From: a virus
Lineage: Duplodnaviria > Heunggongvirae > Uroviricota > Caudoviricetes
Virus record (IMG/VR): IMGVR_UViG_3300025326_000020
DNA length: 64,000 nucleotides
Direction: 5' to 3' (one strand)
The notes under the pieces were generated by a model. It had not been told where the DNA came from. It did not search any database and saw nothing but the letters and a program-made list of their open reading frames with translations. The position numbers and the translations under genes are program-made. This document shows, in pieces, positions 10,902-64,000 of the stretch (its first letter is position 1; every line of letters begins with the position of its first letter).

Positions 10902-12091
10902 TGATGGCTGTCGTTAATCCGCCAGGCTGGTTGCAAAATGCGGGCGCCACCCATACTGCTTCTCAGATGAGAAGTTACTTAGGTGGGATGATGGGTCCAG
11001 CTAGGGCTGCTCTATCACTTGTGCCAGCAGGAGGTGTTAATCAGCATCTTGGTAACAAACTTCAAGTTACTCAGACTGGTTCACCAACAATGGCCATTAT
11101 TGTAAAGTCTGGCATTGCCTGGCTACCTGGTACTGAGAATGGTACTCAAGGTCCATACGGAGCAATGAATGATGCCGACTTGACAATATCGGTTACTGCT
11201 GCTCATGCCACCTTGCCTCGAATCGATATTGTAGTCTTTAAGGTAGAAGACTCACAGTATTCTGGCGCGGTCGATACGGCATCCCTAGTGGTAGTAGCTG
11301 GTACTCCTGCTGGTTCTCCAACTGCGCCAGCAGTACCTGCAAATGGGCTAAAACTGGCTGATATTGCGGTGGCGGCTGCTGCTGCTAGCATCACTAATGC
11401 CAATATAACTGATCAGCGAACCTATCTTGGAACCGCTTCTGGGATTATCCTACCAGATGTTCAAGTGTTTACTGCTGGTGGAAGTTGGAACAAGCCCACT
11501 GGAGCACGATTTGTTCATGTACAGGTTCAAGGTAGTGGCGGCGCTGGCGGTGGTGGCGCTGCTGCTAGTGCTGGTCAGCATTCCAAAGGTTGTGGTGGCG
11601 GCGGCGGTGGCTACGCGGAGAGTATTCTAGATGCTAGCGTTTTAGCAGCTACTGTAACGGTCACTGTCGGTGCTGGTGGTGCTGGTGTTTCCGGTGGTGC
11701 TGGTAATGCCGGTAATACCTCATCATTTGGTGCTAGTGTTGTAGCTGCCGGTGGGTCTGGCGGTGCTACTTCCACTGGATCAGCAGCTTCGTATGGTACT
11801 GCTGGTGCTGCTGGTGGTATAGGTACAACTGGTCAAATTTTAACCAGAGGTGGCGCTGGAGGCAATGCCTATGGCGATGTACAATTATCAACTGGAGGCC
11901 CTGGCGGATCATCGCATATGGGTGGTGGCGGTATTGGTACCGCTACCGTTTCTGCTGGTCAATCAATTGCGGGTGGCACTGGTGGAGTATATGGTGGCGG
12001 CGGTGGGGGTGGATCAGTTGCAGGCACTGGTGCTGCCGCTACAGGTGGTACCGGCGGCGGTGGATTAGTAATTGTTACAACTTACTTCTAG
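10892..12091 (+). CDS. glycine-rich minor tail protein
   Basis: C-terminal two-thirds dominated by GGxGG/GGAGG repeats, as in actinophage minor tail proteins. Confidence 0.6.
   Translation: MEIVMAVVNPPGWLQNAGATHTASQMRSYLGGMMGPARAALSLVPAGGVNQHLGNKLQVTQTGSPTMAIIVKSGIAWLPGTENGTQGPYGAMNDADLTISVTAAHATLPRIDIVVFKVEDSQYSGAVDTASLVVVAGTPAGSPTAPAVPANGLKLADIAVAAAAASITNANITDQRTYLGTASGIILPDVQVFTAGGSWNKPTGARFVHVQVQGSGGAGGGGAAASAGQHSKGCGGGGGGYAESILDASVLAATVTVTVGAGGAGVSGGAGNAGNTSSFGASVVAAGGSGGATSTGSAASYGTAGAAGGIGTTGQILTRGGAGGNAYGDVQLSTGGPGGSSHMGGGGIGTATVSAGQSIAGGTGGVYGGGGGGGSVAGTGAAATGGTGGGGLVIVTTYF
11500..12080 (+). repeat. low-complexity GGN-rich coding repeats (Gly-rich tail protein)
   Basis: ggtggcggcggtgg-type periodicity. 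Confidence 0.5.
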
Positions 12092-12099
12092 GAGTAGTT

Positions 12100-12369
12100 A
12101 TGTCTGAGAACGTACAAGCGCTATATACAGGATTGTGCAGATACGGTCCATACCACACTCTAAGAATGACTTCTAAATATGTTGCCGGTTTCTACTTGGT
12201 TAGGCTGTCAGATAGTTGGGTGTGGGTTTATGACTACAATCAGCAACGAAAGTTGTTTACTGCACAATCTAACGAAGGTAGATTAGCAAACGAAGGTGAG
12301 ATAGACGAAGTAACATCTGGGGGCATTTGGGATTATAAGGTGTTCGCAGAACCTCCTGTTGGAGGATAA
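12100..12369 (+). CDS. hypothetical protein
   Basis: ORF with GGAG RBS. Confidence 0.45.
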   Translation: MSENVQALYTGLCRYGPYHTLRMTSKYVAGFYLVRLSDSWVWVYDYNQQRKLFTAQSNEGRLANEGEIDEVTSGGIWDYKVFAEPPVGG

Positions 12370-49159: not shown

Positions 49160-49235
49160 CCTCCTTGATTCAGTAGCAAGAATCGAACTTGCACATTGAC
49201 GCCGAGTAACCAGCCGCCTCTTCCATTTGGGCTAT
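49160..49235 (-). ncRNA. tRNA-like element or pseudogene with no foldable anticodon arm
   Basis: perfect acceptor TTCAGTA/TACTGAA and T-arm GCAAG-TTCGATT-CTTGC; 74 nt; central region fails to form a 5-bp/7-nt anticodon arm. Confidence 0.4.
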
Positions 49236-49368
49236 ACTGAACTTAGTAAGTTAAGGTTACTGCTAGCGACCTCCACAGCATACGTACGATACTGACGGAA
49301 CCCATTCGCCTGACCCGTATAGTCCTACTGCCATCGTGCCCGTCGACACTCCCTCACCTTAACTTACG

Positions 49369-52631: not shown

Positions 52632-52712
52632 GTGGGTCGGAAGGATTCGAACCTTCATCACCGGCATTGCTGCCCGCTCTACCATTTGAGCTACTAACCC
52701 TCGAACAGCGCA
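52632..52712 (-). ncRNA. tRNA-like element: canonical D-arm and T-arm, GNRA tetraloop hairpin (GGCA-GCAA-TGCC) in place of the anticodon arm, mismatched acceptor; 3' side ends in the CGACCCAC repeat
   Basis: D-arm GCTCAAATGGTAGAGC; T-arm GAAGG-TTCGAAT-CCTTC; no anticodon loop; 5'/3' acceptor strands not complementary. Confidence 0.45.
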
Positions 52713-53165: not shown

Positions 53166-53381
53166 CTAGATTTCCTCTTGATCACTAGGCTGTCTATGTT
53201 GCTTACGCTTGTTCTTAATTGCGTAGAATGTCCTATTTAACCGTTTTGCTAGTTGCTGGATGCTTAGATCACCAGTGGCTATCAGTGCAATCTCCCAGTC
53301 TTCCCACGGTTGGTGGTTTCTGGTTGCATATGCTAACGATCTGGCTTGACGTGATTGCTCTATTGCTTTTCTTCTAGCCAT
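53166..53381 (-). CDS. small HTH DNA-binding protein (start moved to internal Met to clear the tRNA)
   Basis: LSIQQLAKRLNRTFYAIKNKR helix-turn-helix-like. Confidence 0.4.
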   Translation of the reverse strand: MARRKAIEQSRQARSLAYATRNHQPWEDWEIALIATGDLSIQQLAKRLNRTFYAIKNKRKQHRQPSDQEEI

Positions 53382-53411
53382 AATTTCCAAAGTTTCTACT
53401 ATTTTACGAAG

Positions 53412-53484
53412 TGCTCTCAGAGGGATTCGAACCCTCACTTATCAGGACTTAAATCTGATGCCTCTGCCGTTGGGCTATGAGAGC
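53412..53484 (-). tRNA. class-I tRNA with leucine-type anticodon TAA (identity uncertain)
   Basis: perfect acceptor GCTCTCA/TGAGAGC; anticodon arm TCAGA-TTTAAGT-CCTGA (one A.C mismatch); T-arm GAGGG-TTCGAAT-CCCTC; discriminator A. Confidence 0.55.
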
Positions 53485-53626
53485 TTGTGTTGGAATCATC
53501 GAACTTCTTAAAACATGCTTGACATTGTATAAACCTAGTATTATTTATTGCGACCCCTAAATAATACACCTCATCTTGACCACATTGCGGACAAGAGTAG
53601 GACATCTTCTTCATTTGAGTCTCCAA
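53435..53626 (-). CDS. small zinc-ribbon protein (C-terminal 16 codons run through the tRNA)
   Basis: CPQCG...CQAC. Confidence 0.35.
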   Translation of the reverse strand: METQMKKMSYSCPQCGQDEVYYLGVAINNTRFIQCQACFKKFDDSNTSSHSPTAEASDLSPDK

Positions 53627-53835
53627 TTCTTTTTACGTTGTGCTGCTCGTGCGCTCAGAATACCACCTACCGTAACTAGAACGTCATAGTTAGGTTCCTG
53701 CACTATGGCAACAATTAAGTTAGCTGCTTGTTGCTGATCCATACCATCTTCTATTAGCGCGATGAAACCAGCTATGACTTCATCAGTCATCCCCATCTGT
53801 CTGGCCTTAGCCACTATGTCATCAGTGCCTTGCAT
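53611..53835 (-). CDS. hypothetical protein
   Basis: ORF. Confidence 0.4.
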   Translation of the reverse strand: MQGTDDIVAKARQMGMTDEVIAGFIALIEDGMDQQQAANLIVAIVQEPNYDVLVTVGGILSARAAQRKKNWRLK

Positions 53836-53855
53836 GATTTCTCCTGATCATTGTC

Positions 53856-53936
53856 GGAACGGCGTAGGCCCCGGACTACATGCGGCTCTGGTGACTCGCC
53901 AGCAGCAAAGCTCCTGACACTTTCCTAGCCGTTCCT
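53856..53936 (-). ncRNA. candidate structured RNA: 8-bp terminal stem GGAACGGC/GCCGTTCC with bulged extension and internal hairpin
   Basis: inverted repeats enclosing ~65 nt in an ORF-free interval 3' of rsr. Confidence 0.3.
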
Positions 53937-54221
53937 TAGTTGACCTAACCCCTATCAACATGTTAGCCCTTTAACGTGGTGACCACTGGATCTATAAGCT
54001 AACTTCCCCACGGTGTTAAGGTGCTTGGCTCCATCGGTGAGTCAATATGCCAAGCCGCACGCTCATCGTGCCCGTCGTGATATAGCATCAGCAATCGTAG
54101 CTTTGCTGCCTCAGCCCCCAAGGCTACTATACCAGCCGTGTCAAACGCAGTTTTGAGTCTCCCTTCAAGGACCAACTCTAACTGGCTCACTAACCTATCC
54201 TATGTAACAAATAGGATAGAC

Positions 54222-54363
54222 TGCCTCGATCGCTGGACTTGAACCAACAACCTCCAACTTAGCATCCCAGATCACTGTGGCCACAGCTCCCCTTTGTCTA
54301 AAACATGTGTGTACACACATGTTTTAGTTTTGTCGGTGCTCTATCCAATTGAGCTAGATCGAG
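54222..54363 (-). ncRNA. candidate Y RNA (YrlA-like tRNA mimic): tRNA scaffold with ~75-nt insertion replacing the anticodon arm
   Basis: perfect 7-bp acceptor CTCGATC/GATCGAG; canonical D-arm TAGCTCAATTGGATAGAGC; T-arm GTTGG-TTCAAGT-CCAGC; insertion contains a 14-bp perfect hairpin CTAAAACATGTGTG/CACACATGTTTTAG and the 12-nt palindrome CTGTGGCCACAG; ~290 nt 3' of the Ro60 orthologue on the same strand. Confidence 0.5.
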
Positions 54364-54434
54364 TAGTGGCTCTCCTTTTTCTCACCAGTGGCGAGAGCCG
54401 TTCCACTAACCGGAATCAGTGCAGTCGCTGAACA

Positions 54435-54653
54435 CTAACCCGGGAGACTAGTTGTTATAGTACGTGAATACAATTCATCCAGCCTTGTATCAATAGGACG
54501 CTTGAAATAAAAACGAACACTACCAATGTGGGTTGCGAGTGGATGAGCTGATACCAATTCCCAACCCTGTAGACCTAAAGAATCTAAGATCTCTTGCTGG
54601 TTATCAGGGTGACGAGCAACTTCGGTTTTGTATTCCCACAACACGTGAATCAT
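54435..54653 (-). CDS. small DUF4177-like protein
   Basis: LGLQGWELVS motif; overlaps the rsr stop. Confidence 0.4.
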   Translation of the reverse strand: MIHVLWEYKTEVARHPDNQQEILDSLGLQGWELVSAHPLATHIGSVRFYFKRPIDTRLDELYSRTITTSLPG

Positions 54654-56281
54654 ATGTTACCAGCCGAGAATTGTGATACCAGTGCTGGTAGATTAGCGTC
54701 GCCACCAACTACGTCTAACATTCCACGATCGCTAGGATCTGCAATCGTAAAGTTGGTAGCAGATGCAGCCGCAACAATCAGCTTAGCATCAATACCTGTC
54801 TTCTGTCGGTACTGCTTTATTGCCTGGAATGGATGTACGTCACCAAACCAAGTCTCATTGTCAGTGTATATCATAAAGGTATCGACTGCAATGTTGTGCT
54901 TGGCAGCGTAAAGCATCGGCTGTGCACAATCCGTACGACCAAACGACATACTGTTAGTAATTCGCAGAACATCATCTAGACGCATTCCAGGAGAAATACC
55001 TAGATCCTTCATTACATCTGAGAAACCAAAGGCTAGATAGAATGGCTCAGTCTTAGCAACTGAAAGGACCATTGCCGCACCAAGTTCAGCAGCAGTCAGA
55101 TCTAGTCCTGATGCAGCCTGCTTCATTGAACCAGAAACGTCAAGACCAATGAAGAATCTCTTGTTCGATGGCTCAACATAACTAAAGGACTTGTAGAATG
55201 CATCGTTCAATGCATCCACAATTACTGGTGAAGTTGTCCAGTCCTTAGGCTTATAAGCTGCTGGACCACCGAAGCCCATAGGGTATTTATATCCACCCTG
55301 TGTCTCACGAGCAATTTGACCCTTAGTATGCACCATTAGTGCAAGCAAGAACTGAATAGGGTGTAGTCTGGTCTTCTGAATCATTGTCTCGTTAGTGAGC
55401 GCGGTTGCAATCTCACGAGCGAACACCATATCGTTGAACATACCCAATCTTGCAAAGCGAGTAATGTTACGAACAAGTGCCTGACCAGTGAGCTGTCCAT
55501 TGCGGTAAAGCTGATGCCAGACTCTCGGTTCCTTATGGTACTGAGTTGGCACAACTTCCCATGGTAGACCAGGAACAGCTTCTAGTACATTCAAAAGTTC
55601 TTCAACATTTGGTGCTGCCTGTGCAATCTTAAAACCTGCAACTAGTTGGTGTTCACCACTATCAAAGCCAGTCTTACCAAGGATGAACTCACCAATACCT
55701 GGTACAAAACTGCCCTTAACGTGTGATAGTCTAAACATATCACGATGAGTCCAACCGTCGCGCTGGCGATACTTAACCGCCTGGTAGGCTAGCTGGTCTG
55801 GCGTCTTGTGGGTGTACCAGTCAGCTACCGCACGGCGCTTGGTCTTGCCCCAACCACCACCACCGTAATAAGTTCCTAGGTACTTTGCGAACTCATACAG
55901 CATAGTAGATGTACGGCACACACGCTGCACCAAGCTAGATAGGTCACGCTTCTTACCATATTTACCAAGTGCCGCCACTACAAAGACAGCGTACTTGTTA
56001 CGGAAAGCACGACCAGATTCTGAAACTTCCAGAACTGTGTCAATAACTAGCTGCTCATCACGATCAATTAGATCAATTAGGAAGTTCACGTTTTCACGTG
56101 TAAGAGGCTTCTCATCCTGGTAGTAGGTACCTTTCTCAGTACCAACAATTAGGAATCTTTCAAGTCTAACCTTGTCTGATACAGCGAAGACAAACCCACC
56201 AGCATTGTTCTTAACCTGATCTAGTCGAGCCTGCTCACGCTGTGTTGATGCAGTAAGGCTGCGAGAAAATACGTCACTCAT
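54650..56281 (-). CDS. rsr: Ro60/Rsr orthologue (TROVE domain + C-terminal vWA domain)
   Basis: N-terminal VRLERFLIVGTEKGTYY aligns with the human Ro60 RLHRFLCFGSEGGTYY region; C-terminal vWA with MIDAS FFIGLDVSGSM; 543 aa, typical Ro60 size. Confidence 0.8.
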   Translation of the reverse strand: MSDVFSRSLTASTQREQARLDQVKNNAGGFVFAVSDKVRLERFLIVGTEKGTYYQDEKPLTRENVNFLIDLIDRDEQLVIDTVLEVSESGRAFRNKYAVFVVAALGKYGKKRDLSSLVQRVCRTSTMLYEFAKYLGTYYGGGGWGKTKRRAVADWYTHKTPDQLAYQAVKYRQRDGWTHRDMFRLSHVKGSFVPGIGEFILGKTGFDSGEHQLVAGFKIAQAAPNVEELLNVLEAVPGLPWEVVPTQYHKEPRVWHQLYRNGQLTGQALVRNITRFARLGMFNDMVFAREIATALTNETMIQKTRLHPIQFLLALMVHTKGQIARETQGGYKYPMGFGGPAAYKPKDWTTSPVIVDALNDAFYKSFSYVEPSNKRFFIGLDVSGSMKQAASGLDLTAAELGAAMVLSVAKTEPFYLAFGFSDVMKDLGISPGMRLDDVLRITNSMSFGRTDCAQPMLYAAKHNIAVDTFMIYTDNETWFGDVHPFQAIKQYRQKTGIDAKLIVAAASATNFTIADPSDRGMLDVVGGDANLPALVSQFSAGNI

Positions 56282-58105: not shown

Positions 58106-58453
58106 TTACCAATCATGATCATCGGTTATCGGTGATAGATCATCAGGATCAGCACCAATGAGTTTACAAAGCTTAGTCCAAATTTTGAGCAAACAAATTT
58201 CACAATAATCACGACGGAACTGCTGGTGTACACATTGATCAGGATTGAGATAGATTGATAACTCAGACAGTTCAACATCACCGTCAGGTATTACTAAACC
58301 ACAACCATCGCATGTATAGTGTACAATCTGTATTGTCTGACTTACTTCTCTAGTTTCAACCCTTGTACTGTACCGTCTAGACATGATGCTCCTAGAGTGC
58401 TTTGGATATGTTATCGCAATCGTAAATGAGGCCCCACTTATACAACTATCCAC
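58106..58453 (-). CDS. hypothetical protein
   Basis: ORF. Confidence 0.4.
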   Translation of the reverse strand: MDSCISGASFTIAITYPKHSRSIMSRRYSTRVETREVSQTIQIVHYTCDGCGLVIPDGDVELSELSIYLNPDQCVHQQFRRDYCEICLLKIWTKLCKLIGADPDDLSPITDDHDW

Positions 58454-58578
58454 CGTGGTTAACGCTATCTTCCGTAGCTCCCACCAAATGATGCATAATC
58501 TAGTGTTAGAGTATGATCTCAGGGCTCTCTCGCGATGTAAGTTAAACGATTACTGCCGACCCAAAGCGAGTCTAGAAG

Positions 58579-60167: not shown

Positions 60168-60225
60168 AACTCTCCAATTGATTATAGCGTATGGATATGT
60201 TTATTGATATCGGATATCTTATGTC

Positions 60226-60251
60226 GTTAACCGATTTCATCCGACCCATAC
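60226..60251 (+). repeat. GTTAACCGA-N6-TCCGACCCA repeat copy
   Basis: matches 63892..63916. Confidence 0.5.
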
Positions 60252-60280
60252 GTGAGATACCATTCCCGTGGTTGATCTCG

Positions 60281-61526: not shown

Positions 61527-61725
61527 TTTTAACTCTCCAATTAAGGGGAGCAAAAAGAAAAATGGTTCCGATTTGTTAACTAGAGTTTGGGAACCAAAAA
61601 CCATTTCTCCATCTACACTGAATTTTTACAGGCGCTTTAACGTCAGCCCAAAAATTATGTAGACTCAAACGTGGCGACGGTTAACCTTTACAAACCCGAA
61701 GGTTACAGTGTTAACAAACTGGACG

Positions 61726-61810
61726 CGAAAGATATAGGATTCGAACCTATGGAGGTTTTACCCTCAACGAGTTAGCAACTCGTCCCATTAAGCCACTCTG
61801 GCAATCTTTC
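61726..61810 (-). tRNA. tRNA-Ser (anticodon GCT), type II
   Basis: perfect acceptor GAAAGAT/ATCTTTC; anticodon arm ACGAG-TTGCTAA-CTCGT; variable arm GAGGGTAAAACCTC; T-arm ATAGG-TTCGAAT-CCTAT. Confidence 0.6.
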
Positions 61811-61967: not shown

Positions 61968-62149
61968 AAGTCCAAGGTAACACTGGCTCCAATGTTACCT
62001 TGGAGTAAAGTCCAGAGTAGTACAAGGGACGAGAAGTGTGGATGGGCAACCCGCCCAATACTACTCTGGAGTAAAGCCTAGCTAGTCCCAGAGGACAGCT
62101 AGGAGCTATGGAGTGTGGATATGTTATGAGATCGGGTTTGGACTAGGCG

Positions 62150-62223
62150 CCATGCCTTTTCGTCAGGAATCGAACCTGAATCGTCTGATTAATAGTCAGA
62201 TAACCAATACTCTTCCGACCCAC
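62150..62223 (-). ncRNA. tRNA-like member of the GTGGGTCGGA family (anticodon-like loop CTATTAA; no closable acceptor)
   Basis: 5' GTGGGTCGGA-AGAG-TATTGGTTATC; hairpin TCTGA-CTATTAA-TCAGA; T-arm TCAGG-TTCGATT-CCTGA. Confidence 0.4.
62199..62223 (+). repeat. GATAACCAATA-N4-TCCGACCCAC repeat copy
   Basis: matches 63577..63601 and 56523..56548. Confidence 0.5.
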
Positions 62224-62359
62224 ACTCTGAGTCACTAAATTGATAATGATGCATGACATTGGCTTATTAACGCATACTCCTCACATACTGCAAGGTATCT
62301 GTGTCCTGGGTCATGACTCCAGTTAGGCACCCCGGGCACCTATCATATACCAACATCAT

Positions 62360-62445
62360 CCGCAAAGGTGGAGAGATTCGAACTCTCATAATCGGTTTTG
62401 GAGACCAATCAGCACAACCTACGCTCACCGATAAGGTGGCCATCC
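62360..62445 (-). ncRNA. tRNA-like structured element (T-arm GAGAG-TTCGAAT-CTCTC plus long-range 8-bp helix TAATCGGT/ACCGATTA)
   Basis: no canonical cloverleaf. Confidence 0.3.
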
Positions 62446-62842
62446 ATTTGGTTAGCAAGGCGATGGCCTATTCCTTGTATTATAGCTTATCTACAGATCG
62501 CGTTTAGTTTTTTCAGTAGAGCTGACGTTTCATCATGGCTCAGCTAATTCCATGACTTCTATAGATAAACTGTTTTGAATAGTACAATCGAACGATCTGA
62601 CTAACCTTTAACAGGGCCAACTGTTTGCGTTCAGATAGTATGGTTACTCCGGCTAAGAGCCATAGCGTTTGATTGTACAATAGACTCGCCATTTCTGGCG
62701 TCGCAGTACAATCTTGTTTGCCAAGACTATACTACTAAAAGCTTTTCGTGGCCGGGGACGAGATCCCACGCTTCCACAACCATACACTGCAACTAATCGG
62801 CAAACTAGTGTTGCAAATGTACCAAGCCTCTTACTGGTTCCG

Positions 62843-62915: not shown

Positions 62916-63050
62916 GTACGCCCACCAACATTCTACAGCGTAAAGCTTGACAGGCTTCATATGCTTATGAATGGTAGGTAAAGGCAGGTCTCCATAAACC
63001 CTACGTTGCTCACTGCCTCTTTGCCCGTCACGGCATACCAACAGTGCATG

Positions 63051-63137
63051 TACCATCGGTAGGACTCGAACCTACATACCGTACAGCCGTCGCTGGCCTG
63101 CTAATACGCAGGTGCTCTGCCATTGAGCTACGATGGT
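63051..63137 (-). ncRNA. type-II tRNA-like gene with aberrant 6/8-nt anticodon loop (GTATTA)
   Basis: perfect acceptor ACCATCG/CGATGGT; D-arm GCTCAATGGCAGAGC; stem CCTGC/GCAGG; 21-nt variable region; T-arm GTAGG-TTCGAGT-CCTAC; 87 nt. Confidence 0.4.
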
Positions 63138-63267: not shown

Positions 63268-63394
63268 ATAGGCAGTGCAACATTCACAGTGCGGGATTGT
63301 TGCCCCGACTAGGTTCGTCAACCTCCCCTAGTTTATACGTTGCACTGGCTAGAAATCTTCCCTGCCAGGGAAGTTTGGTAGTTCGGATATATGT

Positions 63395-63530
63395 TTGTAA
63401 TCGAAAATGCCTTTCGGCAATGACAGTCGCTCTTCCACTGAGCTACAAGGAAGGATTCGAACCTCCGACATACTGTTTATCCGTTAATCGATTAGCTCCG
63501 ACCCGAACCAAAGCTAGATCCTGTGGATAT
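63395..63530 (-). ncRNA. composite tRNA-like region: D-arm GCTCAGTGGAAGAGC with GNRA hairpin TGCC-GAAA-GGCA, adjacent T-arm GGAGG-TTCGAAT-CCTTC
   Basis: tRNA modules present but not assembled into one canonical cloverleaf. Confidence 0.3.
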
Positions 63531-63601: not shown

Positions 63602-63891
63602 CAGGGTACTTAACGATGTAATGACAGGCGACATCTACTGTTCGTTTAAGACTACCTTCTAAGGGAGAGGAATCCCTGTCATTACATCTTGTGGGTGGGA
63701 TTGGCTATTTCCCAACGATAATCGTCCAGACATGCCGGTGCTGGCCCACGTGGTTGTACTGTAAAAGCAATGGCGATGACCAATGCTTGTTAAATTTGTT
63801 CATAAGTGTTGTGGATATAAAGTAGACATCGGGTTATTGTGCTGACGTATCCGATAAATCAGATACGTTCAACATCATATCATCCCTATGA

Positions 63892-63916
63892 GTTAACCGA
63901 CGTCAATCCGACCCAC
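63892..63916 (+). repeat. GTTAACCGA-N6-TCCGACCCAC repeat copy
   Basis: matches 60226..60251. Confidence 0.5.
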
Positions 63917-64000
63917 AACTAATAAGTCCAGTGAACATGTTTGAGAATTGGAAATTTTTTACACCGACTACGTCGATGTTGTCACTCCCATGTGACTATT

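What the first reader, a model, noticed from the sequence alone, without database searches (positions are those of the whole stretch)
54222..54363. Candidate Y RNA: tRNA scaffold with a 75-nt hairpin insertion replacing the anticodon arm, 3' of rsr
On the rsr strand, ~290 nt downstream, a perfect 7-bp acceptor (CTCGATC/GATCGAG), canonical D-arm (GCTCAATTGGATAGAGC) and T-arm (GTTGG-TTCAAGT-CCAGC) enclose an insertion where the anticodon arm should be. The insertion holds a 14-bp perfect hairpin and the palindrome CTGTGGCCACAG. Bacterial Y RNAs (YrlA) are tRNA mimics encoded next to rsr, so this is the best candidate for the cognate Y RNA. The alternative is an intron-bearing or disabled tRNA.
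Basis: partly seen in the sequence, partly recalled or inferred. Interest (0 to 1): 0.85.

Follow-up and report, generated by a model that had tools for sequence, protein, structure and literature searches.

The report
Insert-bearing tRNA-like gene beside phage rsr
The reported element is a real tRNA-shaped gene whose anticodon loop is replaced by 73 nt of palindromic sequence, but it is most likely a non-decoding tRNA derivative in a conserved "tRNA slot" after the phage Ro (rsr) gene, while the phage's true Y RNAs lie upstream of rsr.

Summary
At 54224-54363(-) there is a canonical tRNA body (7-bp acceptor stem, D-arm, T-arm, 5-bp anticodon stem) enclosing 73 nt that hold a 30-nt and a 12-nt perfect palindrome. 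Rfam tRNA scores it 38.8 bits.

The Y-RNA reading is not supported as stated.
- There is no Rfam YrlA hit even at E<=10.
- The Rsr-contact motif GNCGAA is absent.
- The topology is not the permuted YrlA one.
- The window holds a strongly covarying YrlA-type RNA at 63378-63512(-), with 31 of 40 pairs compensatory across 12 phages, plus four weaker paralogues. All five lie upstream of rsr.

rsr sits inside a dense tRNA array with about one tRNA per 0.9 kb. A follows a conserved H-type pseudoknot (54364-54413) that abuts ordinary tRNAs in relatives; the inferred ancestral layout is rsr-pseudoknot-tRNA-Leu(UAA). The insert and the flanking ORFs are specific to this lineage, and the four sampled copies are identical, so covariation cannot be tested.

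The most likely reading is a tRNA-derived, non-decoding element that is still cut by RNase P and RNase Z. A minority reading remains open. A previously unremarked "tRNA-ordered" Y-RNA design exists next to rsr in distant phages, but A lacks its defining Y stem (39 bits against 59-115 for members).

The parts
54224..54363 (-). Candidate A: tRNA-like gene. It has a 7-bp acceptor stem, D-arm, 5-bp anticodon stem, 73-nt insert, 5-nt variable loop, T-arm and discriminator G.
   Evidence: Rfam tRNA scores it 38.8 bits against a gathering score of 29, with a 73-nt insertion.
54259..54331 (-). 73-nt insert between the two strands of the anticodon stem. It contains a 30-nt perfect palindrome (54298-54327) and a 12-nt perfect palindrome (54275-54286). 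Its last 7 nt, AUGCUAA, resemble an anticodon loop.
   Evidence: Located. No homologue in INPHARED, IMG/VR or GTDB genomes. No Rfam family hits it at E<=10.
54364..54413 (-). Conserved H-type pseudoknot leader that directly abuts the 5' end of A. Layout: CCGG-UU-[S1 AGUGG]-AAC-[S2 GGCUCUC]-G-[S1' CCACU]-GGUGAGAAAAAG-[S2' GAGAGCC]-ACUA.
   Evidence: CM R1 scores it 64.8 bits. Eleven distinct copies were found. On the alignment, 91.1% of cells pair against 74.5% in shuffles, 9 of 12 pairs change on both sides, and the covariation score is 0.432 against 0.165 (0 of 500 shuffles reach it). The motif abuts tRNA-Leu(UAA), tRNA-Leu(AAG) and tRNA-Glu(CUC) in relatives.
54435..54653 (-). 72-codon ORF between rsr and the pseudoknot. 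It is specific to this lineage.
   Evidence: Listed. Pfam gives only a weak DUF4177 match below the curated cut-off. It has no tblastn homologue in about 160 related rsr loci.
54650..56281 (-). rsr, the Ro60 orthologue, 543 aa.
   Evidence: Pfam TROVE (E = 5e-35) plus vWA_Ro60 (E = 2e-58). It is 51.6% identical to the Ro-like protein of Streptomyces phage Moab.
54195..54219 (-). 9-bp hairpin (CUAUCCUAU-UUGUUAC-AUAGGAUAG), 4 nt 3' of A. Role unknown.
   Evidence: Seen. It has no U-tract, so the terminator scan does not call it.
63378..63512 (-). Candidate B: the phage's YrlA-type Y RNA. It has a basal stem with GUCGGA at the 5' end, stems 2 and 3, a T-arm, a 2-nt linker in place of the acceptor hairpin, and a D-arm.
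   Evidence: Rfam YrlA gives a full-length match at 32.2 bits against a gathering score of 69. The family CM R2 scores it 116 bits. RNAalifold on 12 phages gives 40 pairs, 31 of them compensatory.
53411..53484 (-). tRNA-Leu(UAA). In relatives this tRNA directly follows the rsr pseudoknot. Here it is displaced 879 nt downstream.

Best explanation
Candidate A is a tRNA-derived gene that can no longer decode. It has a complete, canonical tRNA body. Its 7-nt anticodon loop has been replaced by, or interrupted with, 66-73 nt of lineage-specific sequence dominated by two perfect palindromes. It occupies the conserved 'rsr - leader pseudoknot - tRNA' slot of this phage group.

Proposed mechanism:
- It is transcribed with the minus-strand array.
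- RNase P (5' side, at 54363/54364) and RNase Z (3' side) recognise it, because these enzymes need only the acceptor/T-arm stack and the D/T elbow, all of which are intact.
- Cleavage leaves the rsr-orf72 mRNA ending in the compact A-rich pseudoknot.
- A roughly 140-nt tRNA-like RNA is released that cannot read a codon.

Shown: the scaffold; the insert; absence of YrlA features; presence of true YrlA-type RNAs elsewhere in the window; pseudoknot covariation and its abutment to tRNAs; lineage-specificity of the block.

Inferred: transcription; RNase P/Z processing; the 3'-end-protecting role of the pseudoknot; loss of decoding.

Whether the excised RNA has a further role, such as binding Rsr, is open.
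For: 1. The tRNA body is intact. Rfam tRNA scores 38.8 bits with a 73-nt insert, and the enforced cloverleaf is within 2 kcal/mol of the MFE.
2. It is not YrlA. There is no Rfam YrlA hit at E<=10. The B-family CM run with filters off gives only fragments of 5-7 bits. No GNCGAA, GNCGRA or GGUCCGA-like motif occurs in 54150-54480.
3. True YrlA-type RNAs exist upstream of rsr. B scores 116 bits and four paralogues score 36-41 bits. B has 31 of 40 compensatory pairs. The family CM gives 279 hits across 85 sources, almost all on the rsr strand.
4. A sits in a tRNA slot. The pseudoknot 5' of A directly abuts tRNA-Leu(UAA) in L012 and L092, tRNA-Leu(AAG) in L010 and tRNA-Glu(CUC) in L018. Both pseudoknot stems covary.
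5. The slot is a rearrangement hotspot. L093 has a tRNA 5' fragment plus an insertion. L010 has a duplication of the rsr 3' end and the pseudoknot. L007 has a degenerate tRNA-like element.
6. The ORFs flanking A have no homologue in about 160 related loci.
7. The window carries other aberrant tRNA-likes at 63050-63137, 62363-62421 and 52633-52700.
8. tRNA density is one per 0.9 kb, so proximity to rsr is expected by chance.
Against: - No expression or processing data exist.
- All tertiary-interaction nucleotides and a perfect acceptor stem are preserved. That could mean selection for a tRNA-shaped function rather than simply a recent insertion.
- Non-permuted tRNA scaffolds carrying a Y-type stem in the anticodon position do occur right next to rsr in distant phages, so the 'tRNA plus insert equals Rsr partner' design is real in nature.
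- MAFFT aligns A's GGGGAGCUGUGG...GUGAUCU over their GGGCCGNNG...GUUAUC, which may be remote homology.
- The four sampled copies are 100% identical, so selection on the insert cannot be assessed either way.
Confidence: 0.55

Rival explanations
1. A is a genuine Rsr-associated Y-like RNA of the 'tRNA-ordered' design. In this reading a tRNA scaffold keeps free acceptor ends, and its anticodon arm has been replaced by the protein-binding or effector module. Here that module would be a divergent one (a 13-bp perfect hairpin plus a second hairpin) that lacks the usual Rsr motif. It would tether Rsr or recruit tRNA-binding enzymes as YrlA is proposed to do.
For: - It is on the same strand as rsr, 286 nt 3' of it.
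- The tRNA elbow nucleotides are intact.
- A class of self-contained non-permuted tRNA scaffolds with a Y-type stem in the anticodon position lies 60-500 nt from rsr in L160, L158, L063, L060, L146 and L126. The class has 26 consensus pairs, 20 of them compensatory.
- Rfam scores L160 the same way as A, as tRNA plus insert at 45.1 bits.
- A's insert loosely aligns to the class motif region.
Against: - The class CM R3 gives A 39.3 bits, within the range of ordinary tRNAs (20-50 bits in the window). The Y-stem segment is skipped as a local insertion. Members score 59-115 bits.
- There is no GNCGAA-type motif.
- Hairpin 1 is a perfect bulge-free duplex, unlike Y stems.
- The phage already has five YrlA-type RNAs.
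- The orthologous slot holds ordinary tRNAs in relatives.
- No conservation is seen beyond one clonal lineage.
Confidence: 0.2
2. The tRNA-like body is incidental, and the functional unit is the DNA palindrome pair inserted into a tRNA gene. The palindromes could be a dimeric-protein operator or recognition site, an antisense-strand terminator, or the scar of a foldback or template-switch event.
For: - Both palindromes are perfect through their centres (GTAC and GGCC). RNA hairpin selection does not require this. By inference, the chance of both centres being palindromic is about 1/256.
- The 30-mer is the longest close-armed inverted repeat in the 64 kb.
- On the plus strand it is followed by TTTTGT and is the only terminator-like call in the region.
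Against: - It is a single copy in the window and absent from IMG/VR and GTDB genomes, so there is no repeated operator and no mobile family.
- The terminator call is not above chance (1 found against 0.5 expected).
- No plus-strand genes lie nearby that would need termination.
Confidence: 0.12
3. A is an intron-containing functional tRNA. The 66-nt insert would be removed at the RNA level to give a 75-nt tRNA with anticodon loop AUGCUAA (anticodon GCU).
For: - ARAGORN with introns allowed parses it this way.
- The residual loop has U33 and a purine at position 37.
Against: - Known bacterial and phage tRNA introns are group I and at least about 200 nt long (established knowledge). No Intron_gpI or ribozyme family hits at E<=10.
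- Bacteria have no bulge-helix-bulge splicing machinery (established knowledge).
- The product would be a type-I tRNA(GCU), which bacterial SerRS should not charge because it needs the long variable arm.
- A normal type-II tRNA-Ser(GCU) already exists at 61725-61810.
- The insert sits before position 32, not at the canonical 37/38 site.
Confidence: 0.04

Closest known systems
YrlA (Rfam RF02553; Chen et al. 2014, PMC4201824)
   Same: It is a tRNA mimic with D- and T-arms and intact elbow nucleotides. It is encoded on the rsr strand close to rsr, in a phage whose relatives carry YrlA-type RNAs.
   Different: - YrlA's 5' and 3' ends form the Rsr-binding basal stem with GNCGAAN0-1G, and the order is T-arm, closed acceptor hairpin, D-arm.
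- A has free acceptor ends, D-arm before T-arm, no motif, and no Rfam YrlA hit at E<=10.
- The real YrlA-type RNA of this phage is at 63378-63512(-).
'tRNA-ordered' Y-type RNAs found here (L160 2327-2450, L158 2398-2522 and 2528-2653, L063, L080); I know of no description in the literature
   Same: They have a non-permuted tRNA scaffold with an acceptor stem that closes within the unit, and a large structured replacement of the anticodon loop. They lie within a few hundred nt of rsr on its strand. Rfam sees them only as tRNA plus insert.
   Different: - Members carry a two-part Y stem (CUUGCCCG-loop-CGGGCCGNNG...GGUUAUCG) that covaries.
- A has a bulge-free perfect palindrome instead.
- A scores 39 bits against 59-115 bits for members.
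Deinococcus radiodurans Yrn1
   Same: The D-like and T-like arms are in tRNA order, with a stem-loop in the anticodon position (Chen et al. 2014, section 'Functional implications').
   Different: In Yrn1 the terminal stem is the bulged Rsr-binding helix with both conserved strands. A's terminal stem is a plain 7-bp acceptor stem without the motif.
MALAT1 / MEN-beta 3' end: triple helix followed by the tRNA-like mascRNA, cut by RNase P
   Same: A compact A-rich tertiary structure (here an H-type pseudoknot with an A-rich loop 3) directly precedes a non-decoding tRNA-like element. This suggests that RNase P creates a structured, exonuclease-resistant 3' end on the upstream RNA.
   Different: This is an analogy only. 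mascRNA is eukaryotic and there is no sequence relation. Processing and stabilisation are untested here, and the same pseudoknot also precedes ordinary tRNAs.
tRNA genes with group I introns in the anticodon loop (for example cyanobacterial tRNA-Leu(UAA))
   Same: An insertion lies within the anticodon loop of an otherwise canonical tRNA gene.
   Different: The insert is only 66-73 nt, has no group I core (no Rfam hit), sits at a non-canonical position, and would give an implausible spliced tRNA.

Membership tests
YrlA (RF02553) | Reaches the Rfam covariance-model gathering score, or at least gives a detectable hit | tested here: not met
   There is no YrlA hit over 53400-54900 at E<=10. Candidate B, by contrast, gives a full-length match at 32.2 bits.
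YrlA (RF02553) | The 5' and 3' ends pair into a long basal stem carrying the Rsr-contact motif GNCGAAN0-1G (PMC4201824) | tested here: not met
   No strict or relaxed motif occurs in 54150-54480(-). The terminal helix is a plain 7-bp acceptor stem.
YrlA (RF02553) | Permuted module order: T-arm, closed acceptor stem-loop, D-arm | tested here: not met
   A has the order D-arm (54354-54338), insert, T-arm (54248-54232), with open acceptor ends.
YrlA (RF02553) | Encoded adjacent to an rsr/Ro60 gene on the same strand | tested here: met
   A lies 286 nt 3' of rsr. This is weakly informative, because there is one tRNA per about 0.9 kb in this array.
YrlA (RF02553) | Bound by Rsr in vivo | not testable with these tools
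   This needs RIP or EMSA.
   With filters off, only T-arm (5.3 bits), D-arm (5.4 bits) and generic hairpin (7 bits) fragments are found.
tRNA (RF00005) | Cloverleaf scaffold scoring above the gathering threshold | tested here: met
   It scores 38.8 bits against a gathering score of 29.
tRNA (RF00005) | 7-nt anticodon loop with U33 presenting an anticodon | tested here: not met
   73 nt lie between the stem strands. Default ARAGORN does not call it. Only a cryptic AUGCUAA lies next to the 3' strand.
   A scores 39.3 bits and the Y-stem segment is skipped as a local insertion. Members score 59-115 bits and ordinary tRNAs up to about 55 bits.
Group I intron-containing tRNA | Group I catalytic core within the insert | tested here: not met
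   The insert is 66-73 nt, and no Intron_gpI or ribozyme family hits at E<=10.

The most novel reading that the evidence does not exclude
A could be a new kind of Rsr partner or effector RNA. In this reading it is a tRNA-ordered Y-like RNA in which the usual Rsr-binding stem has been replaced by a perfect 13-15-bp duplex. It would possibly act together with the conserved 5' pseudoknot as a bipartite rsr-linked RNA. That would make it an independent, recent case of tRNA-to-Y-RNA evolution caught in one phage lineage.
Probability: 0.15. Interest if true: 0.7.

Novelty: new variant of a known kind. Interest (0 to 1): 0.45.

Why it matters
Taken alone, A is a lineage-specific oddity: a tRNA-shaped RNA that cannot decode. 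Its value lies in what it exposes about these rsr-encoding actinophages.

1. Their Y RNAs are YrlA-type RNAs in arrays upstream of rsr, which genome annotations do not list.
2. A covarying H-type pseudoknot sits as a leader directly in front of tRNAs, and preferentially right after rsr. This suggests a 3' end on the rsr mRNA that is defined by RNase P and protected by structure.
3. Circularly permuted, "tRNA-ordered" Y RNAs exist next to rsr in distant phages.

Together these make the question of how Y RNAs arise from tRNAs, and what their tRNA module is for, testable in a tractable phage system. If A turned out to bind Rsr, it would be a snapshot of that transition.

Tried and rejected
- Blastn of A against INPHARED found only chance D-arm and T-arm matches to tRNAs.
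- A single-protein Rsr scan of IMG/VR found nothing. The exact window Rsr is not on record.
- Exact palindrome searches found nothing in IMG/VR or GTDB genomes, so a mobile-element or host origin has no support.
- The palindrome is not part of a repeat family within the window.
- A brute-force pseudoknot scan in Python timed out and was replaced by a covariance model.
- The ARAGORN 'intron' calls sharing the GGGCCGA...GGUUAUC motif first looked like a conserved tRNA-intron class. In L054, L076, L132 and L152 they are chimeras spanning tandem permuted YrlAs. L160, L158, L063 and L080 are self-contained units.
- The 'i(33,66)' tRNA-Val calls in Gilson-like phages overlap ordinary tRNAs, so they too are chimeras.
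- With the insert removed, A's scaffold has no clear tRNA orthologue; it is 70-74% identical to Asn and Arg tRNAs.
- The promoter and terminator scans gave nothing above chance.
- Literature searches found no description of leader pseudoknots in front of phage tRNAs, and none of Streptomyces-phage Y RNAs.

Full report
**1. Observation**

On the minus strand, 54363-54224 reads CUCGAUC-UA-GCUC-AAUUGGAUA-GAGC-A-CCGAC-[73 nt]-GUUGG-AGGUU-GUUGG-UUCAAGU-CCAGC-GAUCGAG-G. This is a complete tRNA body:
- a perfect 7-bp acceptor stem;
- U8 and A9;
- a 4-bp D-stem with G18G19;
- a 5-bp anticodon stem;
- a 5-nt variable loop with an A15:U48 Levitt pair;
- a 5-bp T-stem with a UUCAAGU loop.

Rfam's tRNA model scores it 38.8 bits against a gathering score of 29, with the 73 nt treated as a local insertion. 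Default ARAGORN skips it. With introns allowed ARAGORN calls tRNA-Ser(GCU) i(33,66). The fold is more stable than shuffles (z = -3.95), and the enforced cloverleaf is within 2 kcal/mol of the MFE.

The insert holds a 30-nt perfect palindrome (54327-54298) and the 12-nt palindrome CTGTGGCCACAG (54286-54275). The 30-mer is unique in the window and is the longest close-armed inverted repeat in the 64 kb.

The ORF at 54650-56281(-) is an Ro60 orthologue with Pfam TROVE and vWA_Ro60 domains. An anticodon stem exists, so only the loop is replaced. A 72-codon ORF and a conserved pseudoknot lie between rsr and the element.

**2. Context**

The window is part of a large actinophage-like genome. It has 27 or more tRNAs, all on the minus strand, within 24 kb, which is one per about 0.9 kb.

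Its Rsr is at most 51.6% identical to those of the roughly 130-kb Streptomyces phages such as Moab and Gilson. The same phage (99% Rsr identity) occurs in four metagenome assemblies, where A and 511 nt around it are 100% identical. The next relatives are only 55-60% identical. Covariation within A's insert therefore cannot be assessed.

**3. The phage's real YrlA-type RNAs are elsewhere**

Rfam YrlA (RF02553) gives no hit at A even at E<=10. It does give a full-length sub-threshold hit at 63395-63494(-) (32.2 bits).

Homologues of this element, here called B, occur in many related loci, always on the rsr strand. An RNAalifold consensus on 12 phages has 40 pairs, 31 of them with compensatory double changes. 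The structure is:
- a basal stem with a GGGU/AUCC core, whose 5' strand carries GUCGGA or GUCGAAG (the GNCGAAN0-1G Rsr-contact motif of Chen et al. 2014, PMC4201824);
- two further stems;
- a T-arm;
- a closed acceptor hairpin, which is deleted in the window and in L007;
- a D-arm.

A CM of this family (R2) gives 279 hits at E<=0.01 in 85 sources. Most are in tandem arrays just upstream of rsr. In the window it scores B at 116 bits and finds paralogues at 63806-63922, 62110-62229, 60186-60255 and 58397-58570. With filters off it finds only fragments of 5-7 bits in the A region. None of the Rsr-contact motifs occurs in 54150-54480.

A is therefore not a YrlA-family member and is not the best Y-RNA candidate in this window.

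**4. What A's position says**

Immediately 5' of A (54413-54364) is an H-type pseudoknot: CCGG-NN-[S1]-AAM-[S2]-G-[S1']-(A-rich loop 3)-[S2']-ACUA. A CM (R1) recovers 11 distinct copies.

On the CM alignment:
- 91.1% of cells pair, against 74.5% in shuffles;
- 9 of 12 pairs change on both sides;
- the covariation score is 0.432 against 0.165 (0 of 500 shuffles reach it);
- every slid register collapses.

S1 was not part of the model's structure, so its support is independent.

Six or seven copies lie directly after the rsr stop codon, or after rsr plus a small ORF. Wherever the motif abuts a downstream element, that element is a tRNA:
- tRNA-Leu(UAA) in L012 and L092, with zero gap;
- tRNA-Leu(AAG) in L010;
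- tRNA-Glu(CUC) in L018;
- a 5' fragment of tRNA-Leu in L093;
- a degenerate tRNA-Trp-like remnant in the window itself, at about 62476-62363.

The inferred ancestral layout is thus rsr - pseudoknot - tRNA-Leu(UAA). In the window, A occupies that slot and tRNA-Leu(UAA) lies 879 nt further on.

The stretch is a rearrangement hotspot. L010 has a duplication of the rsr 3' end with a second pseudoknot. L007 has a 644-nt spacer with a degenerate tRNA-like element. L093 has an insertion. The five small ORFs flanking A have no homologue in about 160 related loci. With the insert removed, A's scaffold is a generic type-I body (70-74% identical to Asn and Arg tRNAs) with no clear orthologue.

**5. The insert**

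It has no homologue in INPHARED, IMG/VR or GTDB genomes, and no Rfam family, ribozyme or intron model hits it.

Both palindromes are perfect through their centres (GTAC and GGCC). RNA-level selection does not require that, which points (by inference) to a DNA-level origin or constraint, or to a very recent event.

The only terminator-like call is on the antisense strand and is not above chance.

Removing 66 nt would leave a type-I tRNA(GCU). This is an implausible Ser tRNA, given the normal type-II tRNA-Ser(GCU) at 61725-61810. Self-splicing is implausible at this size.

**6.

While chasing ARAGORN 'intron' calls I found that several were chimeras of tandem permuted YrlAs, in L054, L076, L132 and L152. 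Others are self-contained units: L160 2327-2450 (117 nt 3' of rsr), L158 2398-2522 and 2528-2653 (the latter with an encoded CCA), L063 1663-1791 and 1882-2018, and L080 13497-13624.

Each has one D-arm followed by one T-arm, and an acceptor stem that closes within the unit. In place of the anticodon arm there is a two-part Y-type stem closed by a small loop...CUUGCCCG-loop-CGGGCCGNNG...GGUUAUCG. The consensus has 26 pairs, 20 of them compensatory. This design is a circular permutation of YrlA. Rfam sees L160 only as tRNA plus insert at 45.1 bits, exactly as it sees A.

A CM of this class (R3) finds further members at 59-83 bits: L085, L060, L146, L066 and L126. A scores 39.3 bits, inside the range of ordinary tRNAs (20-50 bits in the window), and the Y-stem segment is skipped. 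A shares the topology and the neighbourhood but lacks the defining module, so membership is not met. A loose MAFFT alignment of A's GGGGAGCUGUGG...GUGAUCU over the class motif is noted but carries little weight.

**7. Verdict**

Best explanation (about 0.55): A is a tRNA-derived, non-decoding tRNA-like gene in the conserved post-rsr tRNA slot. It probably still serves as an RNase P/Z processing unit that leaves the rsr-orf72 mRNA ending in the pseudoknot. The MALAT1 triple helix followed by mascRNA is a functional analogy, by inference only.

Rivals:
- a divergent tRNA-ordered Y-like Rsr partner (about 0.2);
- a DNA-level palindromic element that happens to sit in a tRNA gene (about 0.12);
- an intron-bearing functional tRNA (about 0.04).

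Novelty: a new variant of a known kind, namely a tRNA-like element or tRNA mimic.

Interest is moderate for A itself. It is higher for three by-products: the phage YrlA arrays, the tRNA-leader pseudoknot, and the tRNA-ordered Y RNAs.

Noticed in passing
window 63378-63512 (-); paralogues at 63806-63922, 62110-62229, 60186-60255 and 58397-58570 (-): These are YrlA-type Y RNAs upstream of rsr. The best one (116 bits with the family CM) lacks the closed acceptor hairpin that most relatives have. Across 85 related sources the family CM gives 279 hits, mostly as tandem arrays just 5' of rsr, and the phage records inspected (Moab L001, Jollison L002) do not annotate them.
   Followed up: yes
window 54364-54413 (-) and about 62438-62476 (-); L007 11632-11679; L010 11717-11764 and 11951-12003; L012 1371-1418 and 10783-10824; L018 11087-11133; L014 1370-1417; L092 5100-5145; L093 3204-3250: A conserved, covarying H-type pseudoknot with an A-rich loop 3 lies preferentially right after the rsr stop codon and directly abuts the 5' end of tRNAs. 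No Rfam family matches it. Its function is unknown. One idea is that it protects the 3' end of the upstream mRNA after RNase P cleavage.
   Followed up: yes
L160 2327-2450; L158 2398-2522 and 2528-2653; L063 1663-1791 and 1882-2018; L080 13497-13624; also L085 3532-3663 and 3671-3808, L060 9715-9886, L146 3659-3802, L066 8155-8278, L126 1232-1390: These are 'tRNA-ordered' Y-type RNAs. Each is a self-contained tRNA scaffold, some with an encoded CCA, whose anticodon arm is a Y-type stem carrying the GNCG motif and closed by a small loop. The design is a circular permutation of YrlA. They lie within tens to hundreds of nt of rsr. I found no description of this in the papers searched.
   Followed up: partly
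L063 1590-1660 and 1806-1880; L160 2255-2320 and 2455-2530: These are stand-alone Y-type basal-stem hairpins (GGGCCGGA... or GGGUCGGA... paired with ...GCCC) that have no tRNA-like domain, reminiscent of YrlB. They alternate with the tRNA-ordered units.
   Followed up: no
window 63050-63137 (-), 62363-62421 (-), 52633-52700 (-), 49167-49241 (-): The array contains other aberrant tRNA-like genes: an 88-nt element with a 6-nt 'anticodon' loop and a 21-nt variable region (ARAGORN calls it tRNA-???); a tRNA-Trp(CCA)-like remnant lacking a normal D-arm (29.0 bits); a weak tRNA hit (35.3 bits); and a 75-nt type-I 'tRNA-Ser(ACU)'.
   Followed up: partly
L010 11853-12003: About 40 nt of the rsr 3' end (...LISEFSAGRI*) are duplicated after tRNA-Leu(AAG), together with a second, diverged copy of the pseudoknot. 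This suggests that the rsr 3' end and the pseudoknot duplicate as one unit.
   Followed up: partly
L093 3251-3531: After the rsr pseudoknot there is a roughly 26-nt 5' fragment of tRNA-Leu (acceptor strand plus D-arm). An insertion of about 255 nt with a possible small ORF follows, and then an intact tRNA-Leu(UAA).
   Followed up: no
L007 about 12040-12160 and L010 about 12170-12290: The two loci share a conserved stretch upstream of tRNA-Leu(UAA): GACCAACCUGUGG..CC.UACCACCC..AUGUCC ... GUUGACAG.GGA.GACACCACAGGUAC. It is probably a structured RNA. Rfam gives only a weak DUF2693-RNA match (25 bits).
   Followed up: no
L026 15364-15493, L030 14843-14970, L032 15065-15194, L033 14212-14337, L056 14711-14837 and others (BE-cluster Streptomyces phages): A conserved tRNA-like element of about 125 nt (GAGGAAC-AUAGUUUAAUGG...GUCGGUUCGAAUCCGGC-UGUUCCGCU) lies 4-5 kb 3' of rsr. 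ARAGORN does not call it as a normal tRNA.
   Followed up: no
window 53166-54653 (-): Five small ORFs (72, 63, 74, 63 and 90 aa) lie between rsr and tRNA-Leu(UAA). None has a homologue in about 160 related rsr loci, so this is a lineage-specific ORFan block in a rearrangement hotspot.
   Followed up: partly
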